64,000 nt of DNA from an uncultured Candidatus Saccharibacteria bacterium (GTDB taxonomy: Bacteria; Patescibacteriota; Saccharimonadia; Saccharimonadales; Saccharimonadaceae), in the NCBI GenBank assembly GCA_964499245.1, contig CAZCIN010000001.1, forward strand, positions 5,106 to 69,105, read 5' to 3'. This document shows, in pieces, positions 11,905-25,206 of the stretch; within the stretch, counting starts at the first letter, position 1, and each line of letters starts with the position of its first letter. Made by a program: the position numbers and the translations under genes. The notes below the pieces were generated by a model. The model was given only the letters and a program-made list of their open reading frames with translations. It made no database searches and was not told the DNA's origin.

Positions 11905-12366
11905 TACTTTTTATGTTTTTTCGTTTAATTTGGCAACCCTTATACAATAATGTGTGAAAGAATTATGCGTTTTTCTTCTCAGCGGTTTCAACTTTGTTTC
12001 ACGTTCATTTCAACTTGTTTTCACAATACAGACAGTTTCTAATCTCTCCCCTAAAATGTATTTAAGCAAGGCAAACCCCTACATCAAACCACAGAAAGCG
12101 GGGTGAAAATCTTCATTGGCGGTCGGGGGAGTTGACTGCTAAGACACTAGAAACCATTAACAAATTCATATCAGGCCACATGTGCGCAGTGAGGCGGGAT
12201 ACGACATACCACATCCTTATGACCGTGATAAAGGCGGTTGTTGGGAGTGGGGGTGTAAGTACCCTTGTTTCCTGCGCATCTTTTTTGCCGTACCTGGGTA
12301 CTGCGGGTTAATCCGATTCTTGGCATCCTGCCGTCACTGCCTCTCTGGCTGGAAAGAGAGGCAAAA

Positions 12367-12837
12367 ATGTCTGATTACAATGATTACATGGAACTCAAAA
12401 AATACTATTTCGAATATCTGTCGATGGACATCATGACCCTAGAAATCAAACAACTATACTGGCGCAGCCTCAAAGGTTCAGAAAGAAGCTCCCGCTGCAG
12501 GCTGGAGAACGGCACCCGCTGCATGGCAAACTGCCGCAACTGCCCAAGACAACGAGAGGGCAATCCGCTTTCCCTTGATGCCTTGTCGGAAACAGGCATA
12601 GAGGCCGCCGATGTGTTCTCTTTGGAAGACCATATCATGGAACTGGAACTATCAGAGGCTCTCGCTGATGCCATCAACGCCCTGAGCGAGCAGAATCGAA
12701 TCATTATCCTCCTGTTCAGCGAAGGTGCCACAGAACGGGCTATCGCAGCAAAGGTCGGCATGAGCCAGAAAGGGGTCAACAACCGAATACACAAAATTAT
12801 TAATATATTGCGAGAAAGCCTCAAGGGCTTCTTCTAA
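12367..12837 (+). CDS. Sigma70 region-4 domain protein of the type found on clostridial mobile elements
   Basis: LSEQNRIIILLFSEGATERAIAAKVGMSQKGVNNRIHKI region-4 HTH; start moved to MSDYND. Confidence 0.75.
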   Translation: MSDYNDYMELKKYYFEYLSMDIMTLEIKQLYWRSLKGSERSSRCRLENGTRCMANCRNCPRQREGNPLSLDALSETGIEAADVFSLEDHIMELELSEALADAINALSEQNRIIILLFSEGATERAIAAKVGMSQKGVNNRIHKIINILRESLKGFF

Positions 12838-12842
12838 GGTTA

Positions 12843-12869
12843 GTGCCGCCAGCCAAATACTGGCGGCAC
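12843..12869. terminator. Hairpin between convergent genes
   Basis: GTGCCGCCAG / CTGGCGGCAC 10-bp stem. Confidence 0.6.
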
Positions 12870-12876
12870 CGCTTCG

Positions 12877-13461
12877 TTAATCTGTCTTTTCCATCTTCAT
12901 ATGCTCTCTCAGATAACTTTCCTGACAGCCAAGGATTACCAGTGGGTCGATTTTTTCTACCAAATAACTTTTCTGCATTAGCTCCAGCCCATATATGATA
13001 AGCCCTATATTATGGTCTGCCGATGCACTGAGAAGTCTAATAGCTTCTCCATACAGGCATTCATCACAATCAAATCTGGATAGATCCTCCTCGATCAGAT
13101 AGAGCAGCCATTGGAGTGCTTCGGCTATAAAAAAATTAACATCTTGGGTAAGCTCCTCATTTTTCTTTGCCAAAACTCCCATCGCATCATTAAAAATATC
13201 CGACTCTACAGCATAATAAATGCCTAATCCGATATAGAGCAAATCTGACAGGTCTGTATCTTCCGGAATATCCAGCCTGTCGCACCCCAATAGTTCAAGG
13301 GTGCGTAACCCGTAGATTACTGTTGTGAACGCATAGTGAAGTTTATACTCTTTCACTAAATAATCAGCCACACCATATTTATCCTCACCGTGCGGATATG
13401 GTGTCAGCAGCGGAGTCGCTATCTGCCCCTGTTCATCAATAATTCTTATCATCTCTACCAT
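12877..13461 (-). CDS. Hypothetical protein
   Basis: 194-aa ORF with AGGAGG RBS. Confidence 0.6.
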   Translation of the reverse strand: MVEMIRIIDEQGQIATPLLTPYPHGEDKYGVADYLVKEYKLHYAFTTVIYGLRTLELLGCDRLDIPEDTDLSDLLYIGLGIYYAVESDIFNDAMGVLAKKNEELTQDVNFFIAEALQWLLYLIEEDLSRFDCDECLYGEAIRLLSASADHNIGLIIYGLELMQKSYLVEKIDPLVILGCQESYLREHMKMEKTD

Positions 13462-13573
13462 CCCTATATGCCTCCTTCTGGTTTATAGAGCCGCCGGGCA
13501 GCCATTATTGCCCCGTCTCTCTATAGTGCAGAGGACAATTATTGGGTGTTTGAGAACTGGAAAGAACAGAAAC

Positions 13574-14146
13574 CTAGAACAGCCGCATCTCCAGATATGC
13601 TTTGTCCAGATCATCCTGCGCCACACCGAGGTAGCGTTTCGTGACCTCATAGCTACTATGGTTATAAATTTCCGTAATGATTATGGGTGACACGTTTCCG
13701 CTTGTCCACGCATGGTATCCCCATGTCTTTCTGAGACTATGACAGCCAAGGTTGCCATCCAAGCCTAATTCTGTAGCTGCGTCCTGTATAATCCGCCAAG
13801 CCTGCACCCGGCTGATTGGACGCGCATTTTTACGGTTGTTTACAAAAACAAAATCGCTGTGGCTGTGTGGGTAGTACAGCCGCAGCGCATCAATGGCCTG
13901 TTCGTTTAGGGCAATCAATTTTGCTTTGCCGGTTTTTTGTTCTGTAATTTTGACGTGTACCTTGAAGCGATCCCGCTCCACGTCATAAATCTCTGACCAG
14001 CAGATTCCTAATAAGTCGCTGATTCGTAATGCCGTACAGGTACCAAGCACCACCAGCGTATAGTTCCTTAATTCCCCTTTCTCCAAAAAATAATCCGCTA
14101 AAGCATGAAGCTGGGACTGGTCTCGGATTGGTTCAGTTGTTGCCAT
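13574..14146 (-). CDS. Small tyrosine recombinase (catalytic domain only)
   Basis: LRISDL, HSLRKTWGYH, TKRYLG supply the R-H-R-Y catalytic set; no arm-binding domain. Confidence 0.9.
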   Translation of the reverse strand: MATTEPIRDQSQLHALADYFLEKGELRNYTLVVLGTCTALRISDLLGICWSEIYDVERDRFKVHVKITEQKTGKAKLIALNEQAIDALRLYYPHSHSDFVFVNNRKNARPISRVQAWRIIQDAATELGLDGNLGCHSLRKTWGYHAWTSGNVSPIIITEIYNHSSYEVTKRYLGVAQDDLDKAYLEMRLF

Positions 14147-14471
14147 AATACATTCCCTCCTAATCTGTTTTTGCAATAAGTATAAAGCTCACAGATTAGG
14201 ATGTAACAAACTTTGAAAATTATTACCTCTTTTGGCAGATATTTTATGGTTAACAAGGGTAATGTGTGGTAAAACGTTCCTCAAAAGTGGACGAACCACT
14301 AAAATATGTTTGGACAATACCGGAAAAGAGCCATAAAATGCCCCTTATGTGCCTTGAACGCAGGGGTAAAATATGCTAAAATAAGACAGACTTCAAAAAA
14401 TGTTACATCCGACCCGCCAGGGCGGTTTTTTGACGAGCAAAACAAATATAACAGAGAGGAAAAAGTGAAGA

Positions 14472-15410
14472 ATGAAAAGACAATTTATGGTAATTTTGTT
14501 GGCCGGTGGGCTGACGCTTGGACTGTGCGGATGCGGAGGGGGCAGTAGTGCAAGTGCAATGTCGGCGCCGCCGGAGGAAACGGTAGAGCCGAGCGTGGAG
14601 GATGAAGCAGCCGTCGCGGAGAGCGAAGTGAAGTCTGAAGAAGCTGATGCGGAAAGCTATTCTGTTGATGAGGAACAGCCGGATCAGGCATCAAGTGACG
14701 CAGAACCCATTACTCAACCGGAAGAAAGTCTGGAAAACGAAAATGCCGAGAGCAACGCCGATATGTTGTCGCTGCTGAGTACTCACGTAATTGAGTATGA
14801 AGACCAGGGCGGCTATCAAATCCGCGAGACATGTCAGCTGAACCCGATTTTCCGGGAAGATGACAGTGAGGATATGTATGCGTTATGGGAAGCACTCGGT
14901 AATGATGTTGCGGATTTTCCGAACGAGGAGTCGTTGTATGGCGCGAGCCACTCTATGGAATATGCCCGTGACGCCGACAGCTGTAGCAGTATGGAGTACA
15001 TTATCGGAACCTACAAAATAGAGAATTTAACGGATGGTTTCCCGATTACTCCCGACAATCTTCGTACTTACGTCAGGGCACTCCATGCCGAGCAAGTTAC
15101 CGCCGGCGATAATGAACATGACGCAAACGCGGCCAATTCCTTTAATCTCCGTTCTGTGTCTGCGGTCATAAATGCCGACGGTATCGTTTGCTACGGAGAG
15201 CAAGACGCGGTGGTAATTGGCAACCTAAAGATGACTTCCGATACTTGGGGACCAGTATGCTTTGTCATTGCCCTACCGAATGGGGCTACACCTAACCGGC
15301 CTAATGGGTACTGTTATGATAAGATCAGCGTAGAATTTGGCAACAAAGCCTACGCCGACTCCGGTTATGACGTGTTTGAATTAAATTATTTTGGAGAAGG
15401 AGGTGATTGA
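14472..15410 (+). CDS. Acidic lipoprotein, paralog A
   Basis: Lipobox LCGC; similar to 16019-17038. Confidence 0.75.
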   Translation: MKRQFMVILLAGGLTLGLCGCGGGSSASAMSAPPEETVEPSVEDEAAVAESEVKSEEADAESYSVDEEQPDQASSDAEPITQPEESLENENAESNADMLSLLSTHVIEYEDQGGYQIRETCQLNPIFREDDSEDMYALWEALGNDVADFPNEESLYGASHSMEYARDADSCSSMEYIIGTYKIENLTDGFPITPDNLRTYVRALHAEQVTAGDNEHDANAANSFNLRSVSAVINADGIVCYGEQDAVVIGNLKMTSDTWGPVCFVIALPNGATPNRPNGYCYDKISVEFGNKAYADSGYDVFELNYFGEGGD

Positions 15411-15411
15411 T

Positions 15412-15780
15412 ATGGTATCAACATATACTATGTCAGTGGACGATGAACTTTTTTGGATCTGGAGACTGAAGCGAGGAAAGGCAGAACCTCCTGAACCGGC
15501 GTATGTACCGGTTGAAGAAAAATATGATAGAAATGCCCTGAAAAACATTCTTCGTGAATGGTATGGCCGGCACAGCTGTCCGGCTTGTGGTAAATCATTT
15601 TTCTTTATTCATTCGGCATTCAACTGTCATCCGAAAGCATCAGCTTATAAGGTTTGGGAGGAATTTGCACACAAAGGTCCGGCAGGTGCTACGTCATTAT
15701 CGGATTTGGTTAGGGCTGACGTCTGCAACCCTTACTCCGGTGGCGGTTATTACGGTGGCGGCGGGCCTTATGGCTTTTAA
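15412..15780 (+). CDS. Hypothetical protein with CxxC
   Basis: GGAGG RBS, CPACG motif. Confidence 0.5.
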   Translation: MVSTYTMSVDDELFWIWRLKRGKAEPPEPAYVPVEEKYDRNALKNILREWYGRHSCPACGKSFFFIHSAFNCHPKASAYKVWEEFAHKGPAGATSLSDLVRADVCNPYSGGGYYGGGGPYGF

Positions 15781-16018
15781 GCTGCCTTCTGCCCAATCGT
15801 GGGGGTGGCGCTTAGGCGCTGAATCAGGCTAAATACCTCGAAGTAGAAATCAGGAGTCGTATCACTATCACGGCCCAGCGCAAACTCGCGCTTTTTACTC
15901 TTTGCTTTTGAGCCCCAACGGAATTACAGTTATTTCCGTCGCCCCCTTCAAAATGATATCCTTGGTTGACAAGGGCTATTTTTATTGATAAGTCAAACAA
16001 TGGGAGGAAAAGTGAAAG

Positions 16019-19648: not shown

Positions 19649-19675
19649 AATCCGTCACGAAAGTGGCGGATTTTT
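19649..19675 (+). terminator. ndk terminator (GAAA tetraloop hairpin plus T5)
   Basis: AATCCGTCAC-GAAA-GTGGCGGATT-TTT; the G.U pair forms on the plus strand. Confidence 0.75.
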
Positions 19676-19870
19676 GCAGCGCAGAGCAAAGCCGAAGCCT
19701 CTAAAATAGCTGTTCTGGGCGTAGACATTACCGGCCCACGTACCCAGGCCGCGTCCGCTAGCAGCCGAACTGGCCGTGCTAGACCACCAGTAGCCATCCG
19801 TAGTACGCGCGTAGAGGTAGCCGTCGGAACGGTAGTAGACGCCGGTACGCAGGAACTGGAGAGGCCAAGG
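19676..19870 (-). pseudogene. Orphan C-terminal fragment of a FISUMP (Fib_succ_major)/C-type-lectin-fold protein, resembling a DGR variable region
   Basis: PWPLQFLRTG...GYWWSST...NSYFRGFGFALRC; no upstream gene body; only 2 of 65 codons end in A. Confidence 0.75.
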
Positions 19871-19876
19871 ATTAAC

Positions 19877-19963
19877 CAGTCCGGAGGACATGAAACAAAG
19901 TTTCATGTCCAGCAAGCAACTTTGTTGCTTGCTCTCAACTCTGAGGAGATGAGTTCCGGACTG
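19877..19963. other. Four-way-junction palindromic element
   Basis: 9-bp closing stem CAGTCCGGA/TCCGGACTG around three abutting hairpins of 11, 10 and 4+3 bp. Confidence 0.85.
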
Positions 19964-20015
19964 AACATTAATACGGTTGTAGTTGGGGACACTGGCACCG
20001 TTATTTAACCTAAGC

Positions 20016-20111
20016 GCTTATCCTTGTAGTTTCTCTCCAATCTGTGCTATACTATTGAGGGGGCCCGATACTTGACTAAAATATGATAATATTGAATAGT
20101 ATTGACTAGGA
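20016..20111 (+). repeat. 96-bp inverted repeat, copy 1 (contains extended -10 TGTGCTATACT)
   Basis: Roughly 90% identical to the reverse complement of 24820-24915 by manual alignment. Confidence 0.92.
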
Positions 20112-20201
20112 GATTGAACTGAGATAATATTAAAAAGGACAGCGGGGCCGTATGGGCACCACTTTCGGCATCATTTAATTAAGGGAAAGGAGGATTCGGG
20201 T

Positions 20202-20270
20202 ATGTCGATTTACTTCGGCTTTACTTTACTGCGCAAACGCTTTGAAGTAAAAATTTCTCTAGCTAAATAA
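20202..20270 (+). CDS. Candidate 22-aa peptide MSIYFGFTLLRKRFEVKISLAK
   Basis: AAGGAGG 8 nt before ATG; stop lies in an 11-bp hairpin; downstream of the repeat promoter. Confidence 0.4.
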   Translation: MSIYFGFTLLRKRFEVKISLAK

Positions 20271-20452
20271 GCTAGAGAAACCAACCTGTCTATATTCTAT
20301 CACCTGCACCGAGTAAGGTCAAGCGTTTATAGCAAGATTTTATGAAGAATTGTATGTGAAGCGGTATAGGCCCTATCCCCGCCGTCCGACCAAAATCTCC
20401 TACCACCGTAAAGCCAAAAGAAAACGCCCCAAAAGAATTTGGGGTGTTTTCT

Positions 20453-20529
20453 TGGTGACCCGGGCGCGAGTCGAACGCGCAACCTTTTCCTTAGGACGGA
20501 ACTGCTCTATCCAATTGAGCTACCAGGCC
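20453..20529 (-). tRNA. tRNA-Arg(CCU)
   Basis: Cloverleaf folded by hand, anticodon CCT, encoded CCA. Confidence 0.92.
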
Positions 20530-21624: not shown

Positions 21625-21701
21625 GTGCCCGTAGCTCAGCTGGATAGAGCGTTAGCTTGCGGAGCTAAAGGTCGTAGGTTCGAATCCTGTCGGGCATACC
21701 A
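21625..21701 (+). tRNA. tRNA-Arg(GCG)
   Basis: Cloverleaf, anticodon stem TTAGC/GCTAA around TTGCGGA, encoded CCA. Confidence 0.93.
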
Positions 21702-24491: not shown

Positions 24492-24819
24492 AAGGATATT
24501 ATAACACATGCTTTATGGTGAATGGGGTATTGTGGTGGATGGCGGGCTTGCTCTATCGCCTCACTCGCAAATCCAAGCTCTTGACGGAACTTGGTAGCCG
24601 TGATAGGATAGAGGTAGGTTTATTGGCGGTTCCGTTTTAGCGGGATCGCTTTTGTGTAGATTCTAGTCCCAGTGAGACTATTCTCTAACACAGCACTAAG
24701 GCTTTTTATTTCTAGCGGTTGCACTGCATCTACCTTTCTCCCCTCATTAGCTTTTTAATTTACTCGTAGACGCTTCGCATAGCGCCCGCCATCCTTTTCA
24801 ATATTACCCTAGTTTATCA

Positions 24820-24915
24820 TCCTAGTCAATACTATTCAATATTATTATAATTTAGTCAAATATCGGGCCCCCTCAATAGTATAGCACAGATTGAGAGAAA
24901 ACTACAAGGGTAAGC
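24820..24915 (-). repeat. 96-bp inverted repeat, copy 2
   Basis: Reverse complement of 20016-20111; weaker similarity continues about 45 bp inward. Confidence 0.92.
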
Positions 24916-24974: not shown

Positions 24975-25047
24975 CACACTGGCTTTTCTCGACCTTGCGC
25001 TCCAGGCCGCGCGGCCAAGTCTTTACGGTCTTCAAAAAGCCAGTGTG
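24975..25047 (+). repeat. Dispersed hairpin repeat, copy b
   Basis: Core CTCGACCTTGCGCTCCAGGCCGCGCGGCCAAGTC in a CACACTGGCTTTT/AAAAGCCAGTGTG stem. Confidence 0.85.
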
Positions 25048-25129: not shown

Positions 25130-25206
25130 TGGTGGCGGGAGTTGGATTTGAACCAACGACCTTTTGGTTATGAGCCAAACGAGCTACCAGGCTGCTCTAT
25201 CCCGCG
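25130..25206 (-). tRNA. Initiator tRNA-fMet(CAU)
   Basis: C1:C72 mismatch, A11-U24, anticodon CAT, encoded CCA; terminator hairpin at 25088-25132. Confidence 0.9.

What the first reader, a model, noticed from the sequence alone, without database searches (positions are those of the whole stretch)
19871..19971. Near-perfect four-way junction that looks like an in-frame insertion with a 5-bp target duplication
Seen: CAGTCCGGA closes on TCCGGACTG around three hairpins with no linkers (GGACATGAAAC-AAA-GTTTCATGTCC; AGCAAGCAAC-TTT-GTTGCTTGCT; CTCA-A-CTC-TGAG-GAG-A-TGAG). On the minus strand it is flanked by TTAAT on both sides; removing the 96 nt at 19871-19966 leaves an in-frame NYNRINPWPLQF junction, and the insert itself has no stop in that frame. 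Inference: a miniature structured mobile element, a Holliday-junction-like recombination signal for the adjacent cassette, or a structured RNA.
Basis: partly seen in the sequence, partly recalled or inferred. Interest (0 to 1): 0.75.

Follow-up and report, generated by a model that had tools for sequence, protein, structure and literature searches.

The report
Structured insert in silent DGR cassettes
A 96-base insert that folds into a near-perfect four-armed junction sits at one fixed spot in some of the many silent, retroelement-mutated gene-tail copies of a rodent-gut Saccharibacteria; the element is real and its structure is conserved, but its role is unknown and it is not a translated in-frame insertion with a target duplication.

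Summary
The four-way junction at 19877-19963 is real: fold z-scores are -7.6 to -10.6 on both strands, as RNA or DNA. It is not in a normal gene. The minus-strand "ORF" at 19658-20017 is a promoterless, 5'-truncated copy of the last ~80 codons of a FISUMP/C-type-lectin surface protein. This copy is a variable repeat (VR) of a diversity-generating retroelement (DGR). Related rodent-gut Saccharibacteria carry at least 24 such cassettes per genome, plus a full-length target gene, a reverse transcriptase and an adenine-rich template repeat (TR).

I found 16 copies of the insert. All sit at the same site, between ATTAATG and AATGG, 9 nt upstream of where TR homology begins. About one cassette in five is filled. 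The expressed gene is empty wherever I saw it.

Orthologous loci exist in both filled and empty states. The predicted empty allele ATTAATCCTTGG was not found, and the 5-bp duplication is not conserved. Mouse-lineage copies carry an in-frame TGA.

The stems are kept by three compensatory pair changes and by sense-strand G-U wobbles (99.0% of cells paired in sense, 93.3% in antisense).

Best reading: a non-coding palindromic passenger element that moves between cassettes by gene conversion. A role as a cis-acting 5' border structure for DGR homing is not excluded.

The parts
19870..19965 (-). The 96-nt inserted block relative to empty cassettes (ATTAATG^AATGG). The two bases after it on the sense strand (19869-19868, CT here) replace the ancestral AA of the Glu codon.
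   Evidence: Joint 19867->19966 with 'TT' in DNA runs. Clean indel at the orthologous locus L018 vs L028. 12-sequence alignment A3.
19877..19885 (-). Closing stem, arm 1 (pairs with 19955-19963).
   Evidence: Folds. 97% of cells paired over 12 distinct copies.
19955..19963 (-). Closing stem, arm 2.
19934..19953 (-). Hairpin A (first on the sense strand). It has 7 pairs plus a U.U mismatch in this copy; the other 11 distinct copies pair at that position.
19911..19933 (-). Hairpin B, 10-bp stem and 3-nt loop. The loop-closing pair is C-G in rat-type copies and U-A in mouse-type copies (compensatory change).
   Evidence: pair 55/59.
19886..19910 (-). Hairpin C, 11-bp stem and 3-nt loop. One A-U to G-C compensatory pair. 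A further G-C to A-T double change appears in run X27. The loop flips between AAA and TTT among copies. It contains the ATG that gene callers used as a start.
   Evidence: 19892 G>A together with 19904 C>T; P0001.
19871..19875 (-). Right-hand TTAAT (sense strand). It pairs with 19967-19971 as a weak outer helix and is not a conserved target duplication.
   Evidence: helix 1.
19966..20002 (-). Constant 5' segment of the cassette (NGASVPNYNRIN). It is homologous to the codons just upstream of the VR in the full-length target gene.
   Evidence: full-length gene in L048.
19676..19860 (-). DGR variable repeat: the stretch homologous to the template repeat, ending in the conserved GGCTTTGCTCTGCGCTGC (IMH-like) end.
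   Evidence: TR found in L027 and L046. Variable columns are codon positions 1 and 2. 20 of 41 TR adenines are changed in this copy, against 22 of 144 other positions.
19655..20017 (-). The whole silent cassette: an open frame with no start codon, a stop at 19655-19657 and an upstream stop at 20018-20020.
   Evidence: Weak Pfam Fib_succ_major match to profile positions 127-185 only.
19649..19672 (-). Hairpin AATCCGCCAC-TTTC-GTGACGGATT just after the VR end. It is the kind of stem-loop DGR targets carry 3' of the IMH, and could equally be the terminator of the convergent ndk gene.
   Evidence: Sequence; fold of the 45 nt downstream (-9.9 kcal/mol, z -2.1).

Best explanation
The structure is a lineage-specific, non-coding 96-nt palindromic insertion made of three hairpins inside a 9-bp closing stem. 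Its only known home is one fixed site in the constant 5' segment of silent, 5'-truncated DGR variable-repeat cassettes of rodent-gut Saccharibacteria.

Shown: the window's 'ORF' is one of several dozen such cassettes. These are copies of the last ~80 codons of a FISUMP/C-type-lectin target gene and are diversified at template-repeat adenines. The insert lies between ATTAATG and AATGG, 9 nt upstream of where template-repeat homology starts. About a fifth of cassettes carry it. Every copy of the expressed full-length gene that I saw lacks it. Orthologous loci occur both filled and empty. Its helices are preserved by compensatory and wobble changes.

Inferred: it is a passenger. It is carried from cassette to cassette, and lost again, by the same homologous gene conversion that moves whole VRs between cassettes, not by its own transposase. 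It is tolerated because the cassettes are not translated, and it is kept out of the expressed gene because it would break that gene. Its pairing persists because the sense strand really does fold when single-stranded (as a transcript, or as DNA during replication or repair). That persistence comes through selection or through hairpin-templated repair.
For: Structure.

DGR context:
- Scaffold invariant while codon positions 1 and 2 are hypervariable.
- TR found in L027 and L046, with about 43% of adenines changed against about 9% of other bases.
- Complete DGR with a 571-aa target, RT and inverted TR in mouse-gut contigs L048 and L049.
- Cassettes lack starts and N-terminal domains.

Distribution of the insert:
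- 16 copies, all at the identical site, behind many different upstream flanks.
- The covariance model finds no other copy in 360 kb. BLAST finds no partial copies. None in viral contigs.
- 5 of at least 24 cassettes are filled in MAG MGBC122299.
- The expressed gene in L048/L049, and twelve 'MTNPNG...' fragments that match its C-terminal sequence, are empty.

Gain and loss by conversion:
- L018 vs L028 have flanks that are nearly identical. The tract from 9 nt upstream of the insertion site through the VR differs, and it includes the 96-nt indel.
- L006 vs L001 behave likewise.
- Identical VRs sit in different flanks (L010/L027, L009/L033).

Not translated: in-frame TGA in all mouse-type copies.

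No effect on diversification detected: filled and empty cassettes carry the same adenine-mutation load (18.4 vs 17.3 of 41) and show the same orientation bias relative to GC skew.
Against: A pure passenger should decay. Instead, every stem substitution between the rat-type and mouse-type consensus keeps pairing on the sense strand: two compensatory double changes, three wobbles and one repaired mismatch. The length is constant at 96 nt. The element has persisted since the two lineages split (about 12% divergence). The sense strand stays 99.0% paired against 93.3% for the antisense; hairpin-templated repair alone would not produce that asymmetry. The position 9 nt from the TR-homology border, and the filled state of the TR-adjacent cassette in L027, look non-random. 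The origin of the first insertion is unexplained. The codon next to the insert varies oddly (TAA/TAT/TCT/CCT).
Confidence: 0.45

Rival explanations
1. The element is a functional cis-acting border structure for the DGR or cassette system. Folded on the sense DNA strand, the strand to which the antisense cDNA must anneal, the junction would sit 9 nt beyond the 3' end of the annealed cDNA. It could hold the target open or stall synthesis. That would mirror the stem-loop 3' of the IMH. It could also set the upstream limit of the homing or gene-conversion tract.
For: The position is fixed 9 nt upstream of the TR-homology start. Structure conservation is biased to the sense strand and includes compensatory changes. 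The TR-adjacent cassette in L027 is filled. Published work holds that cDNA targets the single-stranded sense strand and that the 3' stem-loop probably prolongs the open state (PMC12875486; PMC3240598 listed).
Against: Only about 20% of cassettes carry it, and the expressed target carries none. Filled and empty cassettes show the same adenine-mutation load and the same non-adenine divergence. There is no orientation difference relative to GC skew. No experiment bears on it.
Confidence: 0.25
2. The element is a non-autonomous mobile element (a MITE, or a palindrome-associated element of the IS200/IS605 type) that a transposase supplied in trans inserts site-specifically as single-stranded DNA next to AATG.
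For: A 9-bp terminal inverted repeat with subterminal hairpins. Insertion without duplication, 3' of a constant AATG, in copy L035. Strand asymmetry. Clean 96-nt presence/absence at orthologous loci. An empty site GAT (L012) equals precise removal of the 96 nt from a TAT-type copy.
Against: There are no copies outside the one cassette site and no partial ends or parent element in the 360 kb held. None in viral contigs. Each orthologous gain or loss comes with linked flanking changes and a rewritten VR, as expected for conversion. No transposase was identified, although whole genomes were not searched.
Confidence: 0.17
3. The element is a sense-strand RNA element. Where a cassette is transcribed, the junction would stabilise or terminate the RNA, or would supply the in-frame ATG of hairpin C so that an ~83-aa VR mini-protein is made.
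For: Sense-strand wobble pairs. In L027 a promoter module reads into the filled cassette. The ATG in hairpin C is in frame in all copies, and the neighbouring codon is usually a sense codon rather than the TAA expected from a plain insertion. A contig from a real RNA-seq run covers the element at low depth (X26).
Against: There is no Shine-Dalgarno sequence and the ATG is buried in an 11-bp stem. The window copy has no sense promoter; the adjacent module points away from it. The product would lack two thirds of the domain. No Rfam family matches. The RNA evidence is contig-level, unstranded and could be DNA carry-over.
Confidence: 0.1
4. The element is a translated in-frame 32-codon insertion, or one that is bypassed or spliced out, in a functional protein gene.
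For: The length is a multiple of three in all copies, and the frame is open in the two rat-type copies.
Against: The host is a start-less fragment. All mouse-type copies have an in-frame TGA. Joints skipping the element exist in DNA runs and belong to empty paralogues. Perfectly paired stems leave no catalytic core for self-cleavage or splicing.
Confidence: 0.02

Closest known systems
Stem-loop/cruciform 3' of the IMH in DGR targets (Bordetella phage BPP-1; Guo et al. 2011, PMC3240598)
   Same: Both are DNA secondary structures placed directly at a border of the region rewritten by the DGR. Both are thought to act on a single strand of the target, and both are dispensable for the chemistry.
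   Different: The known element is one short GC-rich hairpin at the 3' border and is part of efficient targets. This one is a 96-nt three-hairpin junction at the 5' border. It is present in only a minority of VRs, is absent from the expressed target, and has no measured effect.
Palindromic miniature insertion elements that sit inside coding sequence (Rickettsia palindromic elements; Neisseria Correia elements; REP/BIME)
   Same: They are ~100-150-nt, multi-copy, strongly folding elements. They are often a multiple of three in length, are polymorphic between strains, and have no coding capacity.
   Different: Those elements are scattered over many unrelated sites (Correia elements with a TA duplication). 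This one occupies a single sequence context that is itself a repeat, has no conserved duplication, and shows compensatory maintenance of three separate stems.
IS200/IS605-derived palindrome-associated elements (single-strand transposition, no target duplication, insertion 3' of a fixed tetranucleotide)
   Same: Subterminal hairpins, strand asymmetry, insertion next to a constant AATG without duplication.
   Different: No TnpA or RAYT gene and no parent element were found. Gains and losses are linked to conversion tracts. There is only one target context.
Silent-cassette antigenic variation (Neisseria pilS/pilE with its G4 structure; Borrelia vls; Treponema tprK)
   Same: One expressed gene plus many promoterless partial copies with conserved borders that exchange variable segments by gene conversion. 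In Neisseria a non-B DNA structure is part of the system.
   Different: Here the variable segments are additionally written by a DGR. The structure sits in some silent copies rather than at the expression site. Transfer from cassette to expressed gene was not demonstrated.

Membership tests
DGR variable repeat (host of the element) | A template repeat exists, and VR/TR differences are concentrated at TR adenines. | tested here: met
   TR in L027/L046 and L048/L049. About 43% of 41 adenines are changed against about 9% of 144 other bases; the window copy shows 20/41 and 22/144. Variable columns are codon positions 1 and 2.
DGR variable repeat (host of the element) | A DGR-type reverse transcriptase is present in the same genome. 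| tested here: inconclusive
   No RT in the 64-kb window. RT with the IGxxxSQ motif in L020, and RVT_1 RTs next to a target and TR of this family in mouse-gut contigs L048/L049. No RT was found in MGBC122299 with a pattern-limited scan. The rat genome beyond the window is not available.
DGR variable repeat (host of the element) | The VR forms the C-terminal end of a complete C-type-lectin-fold or FISUMP target protein. | tested here: not met
   The window cassette has no start codon and matches only Pfam Fib_succ_major positions 127-185. The feature is met by the full-length 571-aa gene in L048.
MITE (transposase-mobilised miniature element) | Terminal inverted repeats. | tested here: met
   9-bp closing stem CAGTCCGGA/TCCGGACTG.
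MITE (transposase-mobilised miniature element) | A conserved target-site duplication. | tested here: not met
   The right-hand repeat varies (TTAAT/TTAAC/TTAGC/TTAGT). The predicted empty allele is absent. L035 is a plain insertion.
MITE (transposase-mobilised miniature element) | Copies at many unrelated genomic sites, and a related autonomous element. | tested here: not met
   All 16 copies are at one site of one repeat family. No partial copies or ends elsewhere in the 360 kb held. Whole genomes were not searched.
IS200/IS605-type palindrome-associated element | A Y1 transposase (TnpA/RAYT) in the genome that recognises the hairpins. | not tested
   Only loci around cassettes and the window were available. 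No candidate was seen among the ORFs inspected.
Known structured RNA families (Rfam), tRNA-like cloverleaf | A match to a curated covariance model, or a tRNA/tmRNA detector hit. | tested here: not met
   Nothing at 19870-19965 at the gathering threshold or at E<=10. ARAGORN finds only three ordinary tRNAs.
Self-cleaving ribozyme with a four-way junction (hairpin, twister-sister) | Conserved unpaired core nucleotides in internal loops or at the junction. | tested here: not met
   The helices are fully paired and there is one linker nucleotide in all. No Rfam hit.

The most novel reading that the evidence does not exclude
The junction is a previously unknown cis-acting part of a two-tier diversification system. 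A DGR writes adenine mutations into several dozen silent VR cassettes. Gene conversion then moves these into, or between, loci. The four-way junction, folded on the sense DNA strand 9 nt beyond the homing region, controls that traffic. It could act as a 5' clamp or stop for cDNA integration, or as a heterology lock that decides where conversion tracts begin and keeps a cassette from being copied whole into the expressed gene.
Probability: 0.22. Interest if true: 0.8.

Novelty: new variant of a known kind. Interest (0 to 1): 0.6.

Why it matters
How DGR cDNA is integrated at the 5' side of a target is still unknown. A natural, optional and highly structured element placed 9 nt from that border gives a ready-made with/without comparison.

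The context is arguably more interesting than the junction. These tiny (~1 Mb) epibiont genomes keep several dozen promoterless DGR-diversified cassettes beside one full-length surface-protein gene, and the cassettes demonstrably exchange VRs. That suggests a combination of retroelement hypermutation with cassette-type antigenic variation. I found no description of such a combination in the papers searched.

If the junction is only a passenger, it is still a clean example of a palindromic element that survives through structure-preserving substitutions inside a gene-conversion family.

Tried and rejected
- Rfam at gathering and permissive thresholds: no family matches the element.
- My first DNA pattern, built from the rat sequence, found nothing in the genome collection because the mouse lineage differs in the loops. 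A degenerate pattern then worked.
- Exact-protein look-up of the neighbouring ndk product: not on record.
- RT search in the window by motif: none.
- RT search in MGBC122299 with a goat Saccharibacteria RT: only ruminant loci came back.
- Hypothesis that the filled cassette is the template repeat: rejected, because its variable codons are diversified, not Asn-rich.
- Hypothesis that L034 is a filled copy of the expressed gene: rejected, because the upstream gene is a helicase-like ORF and the cassette is only a slightly longer truncation.
- Splicing or precise RNA removal: the skipping joints are also present in DNA runs.
- Kissing AAA/UUU loops: not conserved, since the mouse loops are GAA with AAA or TTT.
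- Correlation of filled state with adenine-mutation load or with orientation relative to GC skew: none.
- Viral contigs: none.
- Host-labelled RNA runs were not used, because they are unlikely to contain this bacterium.

Full report
**1. Observation**

Read on the + strand, window 19877-19885 (CAGTCCGGA) pairs with 19955-19963 (TCCGGACTG). These arms enclose three contiguous hairpins at 19886-19910, 19911-19933 and 19934-19953. One unpaired T at 19954 is the only linker. ViennaRNA returns exactly this four-way junction as the minimum-energy and centroid fold on both strands:
- RNA, 121 nt: -53.5 and -55.7 kcal/mol, z -7.6 and -8.1.
- 100-nt core as DNA: z -10.5 and -10.7.
- 100-nt core as RNA: z -9.4 and -9.6.
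- No shuffle out of 200 reached these energies.

The structure is therefore real and far beyond chance.

**2. What it sits in**

The minus-strand frame is open from 20017 to 19658 but has no start codon. It matches only the last third (profile positions 127-185) of Pfam Fib_succ_major, and weakly.

Homologues are short ORF fragments with an invariant scaffold, GAS(T/V)PNYNRIN-E-WPLQFLRTG...GFALRC, and hypervariable residues. The organism is a Candidatus Saccharibacteria of the rodent gut. The stretch is nearly complete (0.91-0.92 of the sampled words) in four runs of one coded study and partly present in rat-gut metagenome runs. The closest reference genome is the MAG MGBC122299.

That MAG holds at least 24 dispersed copies of this unit in both orientations. 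None of them is joined to an N-terminal domain or to a conserved start.

In an alignment of 25 copies, the variable columns are mostly codon positions 1 and 2 and show all four bases. Most other columns of the repeat are more than 90% conserved. That is the AAY-codon signature of a diversity-generating retroelement (DGR).

The template repeat was then found in L027 and in MGBC122299 contig 6 (L046). It reads QFLRTGNYNRSYGNLASRTTNGNWWSDTAGSATNGRNLDTNTGNVNAQNNNWRGNGFALRC. Measured against it, cassettes have on average 17-18 of 41 adenines changed but only about 12.5 of 144 other bases. The window copy shows 20/41 and 22/144.

A complete DGR of the same family lies on the mouse-gut contigs L048 and L049. 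It consists of:
- a full-length 571-aa secreted FISUMP protein ending ...YGMTNPNGASTPNYNHINEWPLQFLRTG...GFALRCVAR;
- a 344-aa protein;
- a 422-aa RVT_1 reverse transcriptase;
- an inverted TR.

FISUMP domains are documented DGR targets (PMC11661182). The window's 'gene' is thus a silent, 5'-truncated VR cassette.

Cassettes exchange sequence. Identical VRs sit between different flanks (L010/L027, L009/L033). At orthologous loci the whole tract, from just upstream of the insertion site through the VR, can differ while the flanks stay nearly identical.

**3. The element as a family**

A degenerate pattern and a covariance model recovered 16 copies, 12 of them distinct. They are the window, L001, L002, L003, L024-L035 and a truncated copy at a contig end, L019.

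Every copy lies at the same site, after CGTATTAATG and before TGGCCTCTCCAG, in cassettes with many different upstream flanks. No copy was found elsewhere in 360 kb of related sequence. There are no partial copies and none in viral contigs.

Occupancy:
- MGBC122299: 5 of at least 24 cassettes are filled.
- Rat run X1, by word depth: roughly 35-40 cassette equivalents against about 3-6 element equivalents, with at least two flank variants.
- The expressed full-length gene is empty in L048/L049. So are the twelve 'MTNPNG...' fragments that match its C-terminal sequence.

Empty sites read ATTAAT-GAA-TGG (also GCA and GAT).

Copy L035 shows the plainest junction, ATTAATG[96 nt]AATGG, which is an insertion with no duplication. 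In the other copies the two following bases are AT, CT, or (with the last base of the insert also changed) CCT. The flanking TTAAT of the window is TTAAC, TTAGC or TTAGT elsewhere, and TTAA also forms a weak outer helix.

All mouse-type copies contain an in-frame TGA (GCAATGAAATTGC). The open frame of the window copy is therefore not a conserved property.

Template-repeat homology begins at TCCAGTTCC, window 19860, which is 9 nt downstream of the insert.

**4. Structure conservation**

Rat-type copies (window, L002) and mouse-type copies differ at about 12 of 96 positions.

In the stems:
- two pairs change on both sides (C-G to U-A in hairpin B; A-U to G-C in hairpin C);
- three pairs become G-U on the sense strand;
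- the U.U mismatch of the window's hairpin A is a U-A pair in the other 11 distinct copies;
- a further G-C to A-T double change appears in a metagenome variant (19892 and 19904).

On the sense strand 99.0% of cells are paired, against 93.3% on the antisense strand. Mouse-type copies fold better in sense: -51.0 vs -44.5 kcal/mol as RNA, and -31.3 vs -28.3 as DNA.

The sequences are few and related, so this is suggestive rather than statistical proof. The loop of hairpin C flips between AAA and TTT among otherwise identical copies. This kind of small inversion is typical where a DNA hairpin or its inverted repeat is active.

**5. Mechanism**

Steps shown:
- identity of the host as a DGR cassette;
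- the fixed site;
- presence/absence polymorphism;
- exclusion from the expressed gene;
- non-translation in the mouse lineage;
- preserved pairing.

Step inferred: how the element spreads, and whether it does anything.

Three orthologous comparisons link gain or loss of the element to changed flanking bases and a rewritten VR. This is what gene conversion between cassettes predicts, and a transposase does not predict it. I found no autonomous relative.

Filled and empty cassettes do not differ in adenine-mutation load (18.4 vs 17.3), in background divergence (12.9 vs 12.5), or in orientation relative to local GC skew. About 70% of both classes have the sense strand on the G-rich strand, and so does the expressed gene.

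I therefore rank a non-coding passenger spread by conversion first (0.45). The strict structure maintenance, the sense-strand bias and the position 9 nt from the homing border keep a functional border element alive (0.25). Current work proposes that the cDNA anneals to the single-stranded sense strand and that the stem-loop 3' of the IMH prolongs the open state (PMC12875486). A junction on the same strand at the other border would fit that logic.

A site-specific single-strand transposon (0.17), an RNA-level role (0.10) and a translated insert (0.02) follow.

**6. Comparison and novelty**

The element resembles the palindromic miniature insertions of Rickettsia, Neisseria and enterobacteria in size and foldability. 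It resembles IS200/IS605 derivatives in strand bias and in lacking a duplication. It fails their membership tests on duplication, dispersal and parent element.

It resembles the IMH-adjacent hairpin of DGR targets in being a structure at a homing border. It differs in side, size, optional presence and absence from the expressed target.

The papers I searched did not describe a 5' structured element in DGR targets, or dozens of silent VR cassettes per genome. Those searches cover open literature only.

**7. Verdict**

- The interpretation as an in-frame insertion with a 5-bp duplication is wrong.
- The idea of a small structured, gain-and-loss element tied to a cassette system is right.
- Function is unproven.
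- Interest is moderate to high, mainly because of the DGR-plus-cassette context and the testable border hypothesis.

Noticed in passing
window 20016-20146 (+) and 24785-24915 (-): A 130-bp repeat (88% identity) containing a good sigma-70-like promoter (TTGACT-17-TAATAT at 20102-20130). Its core (about 20027-20119) is about 7-17 times single-copy depth in run X1, so it is a multi-copy promoter module. In L027 the same module reads into a filled cassette. In the window it points away from the cassette.
   Followed up: partly
window 20136-20390 (+) and 24535-24797 (-): Downstream of each promoter module lies a ~260-290-nt candidate RNA whose 5' and 3' ends pair (z -4.6 and -5.7). The second ends GCCCGCCAUCC followed by ACCA. 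Neither has an Rfam, tRNA or tmRNA hit. Each also carries a possible Shine-Dalgarno sequence plus a tiny ORF. Homologues lie beside cassettes in L025 and L030, and part of it in L027.
   Followed up: partly
window 1-64000, switch near 12000-16000: GC skew is negative (-0.07 to -0.10) up to about 12 kb and strongly positive (+0.08 to +0.34) from 16 kb on, which looks like a replication origin or terminus switch. Most long ORFs between 25 and 53 kb nevertheless lie on the minus strand.
   Followed up: no
window 24990-25022: The sequence ttctcgaccttgcgctccaggccgcgcggcc matches the 5' flank shared by a cassette subfamily (L003, L004, L012), but no cassette follows it. In mouse locus L025 the orthologous intergenic region between tRNA-Met and the RNA candidate holds a filled cassette. 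Whole cassettes therefore come and go at this locus.
   Followed up: partly
L048 3602-8122; L049; L046 3470-3680; L027: The mouse-gut lineage has a complete DGR: a 571-aa FISUMP target, a 344-aa protein, an RT and an inverted TR. It also has a second TR copy 340 nt downstream of a cassette, with no RT next to it. The two TRs differ at several codons.
   Followed up: partly
L003 475-684, L016 4366-4584, L019 361-579, L034 2431-2748: A second cassette subfamily (NFPLNFLRTGYYYYSDGKVY...GFAVRC) often lies tail-to-tail within about 10-150 nt of a type-1 cassette. It corresponds to a different full-length target (P0053 in L047, next to its own RT). No junction element was found in it.
   Followed up: partly
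L026 3190-3260: One filled cassette carries a short internal duplication (CTGCGTACTGG...CAACCGTTC repeated) that shifts the frame. This is further evidence that the cassettes are not under coding constraint.
   Followed up: no
window 20453-20529, 21625-21701, 25130-25206; L005, L014, L027: Cassettes and promoter modules are frequently found beside tRNA genes and their terminators, both in the window and in related loci.
   Followed up: no
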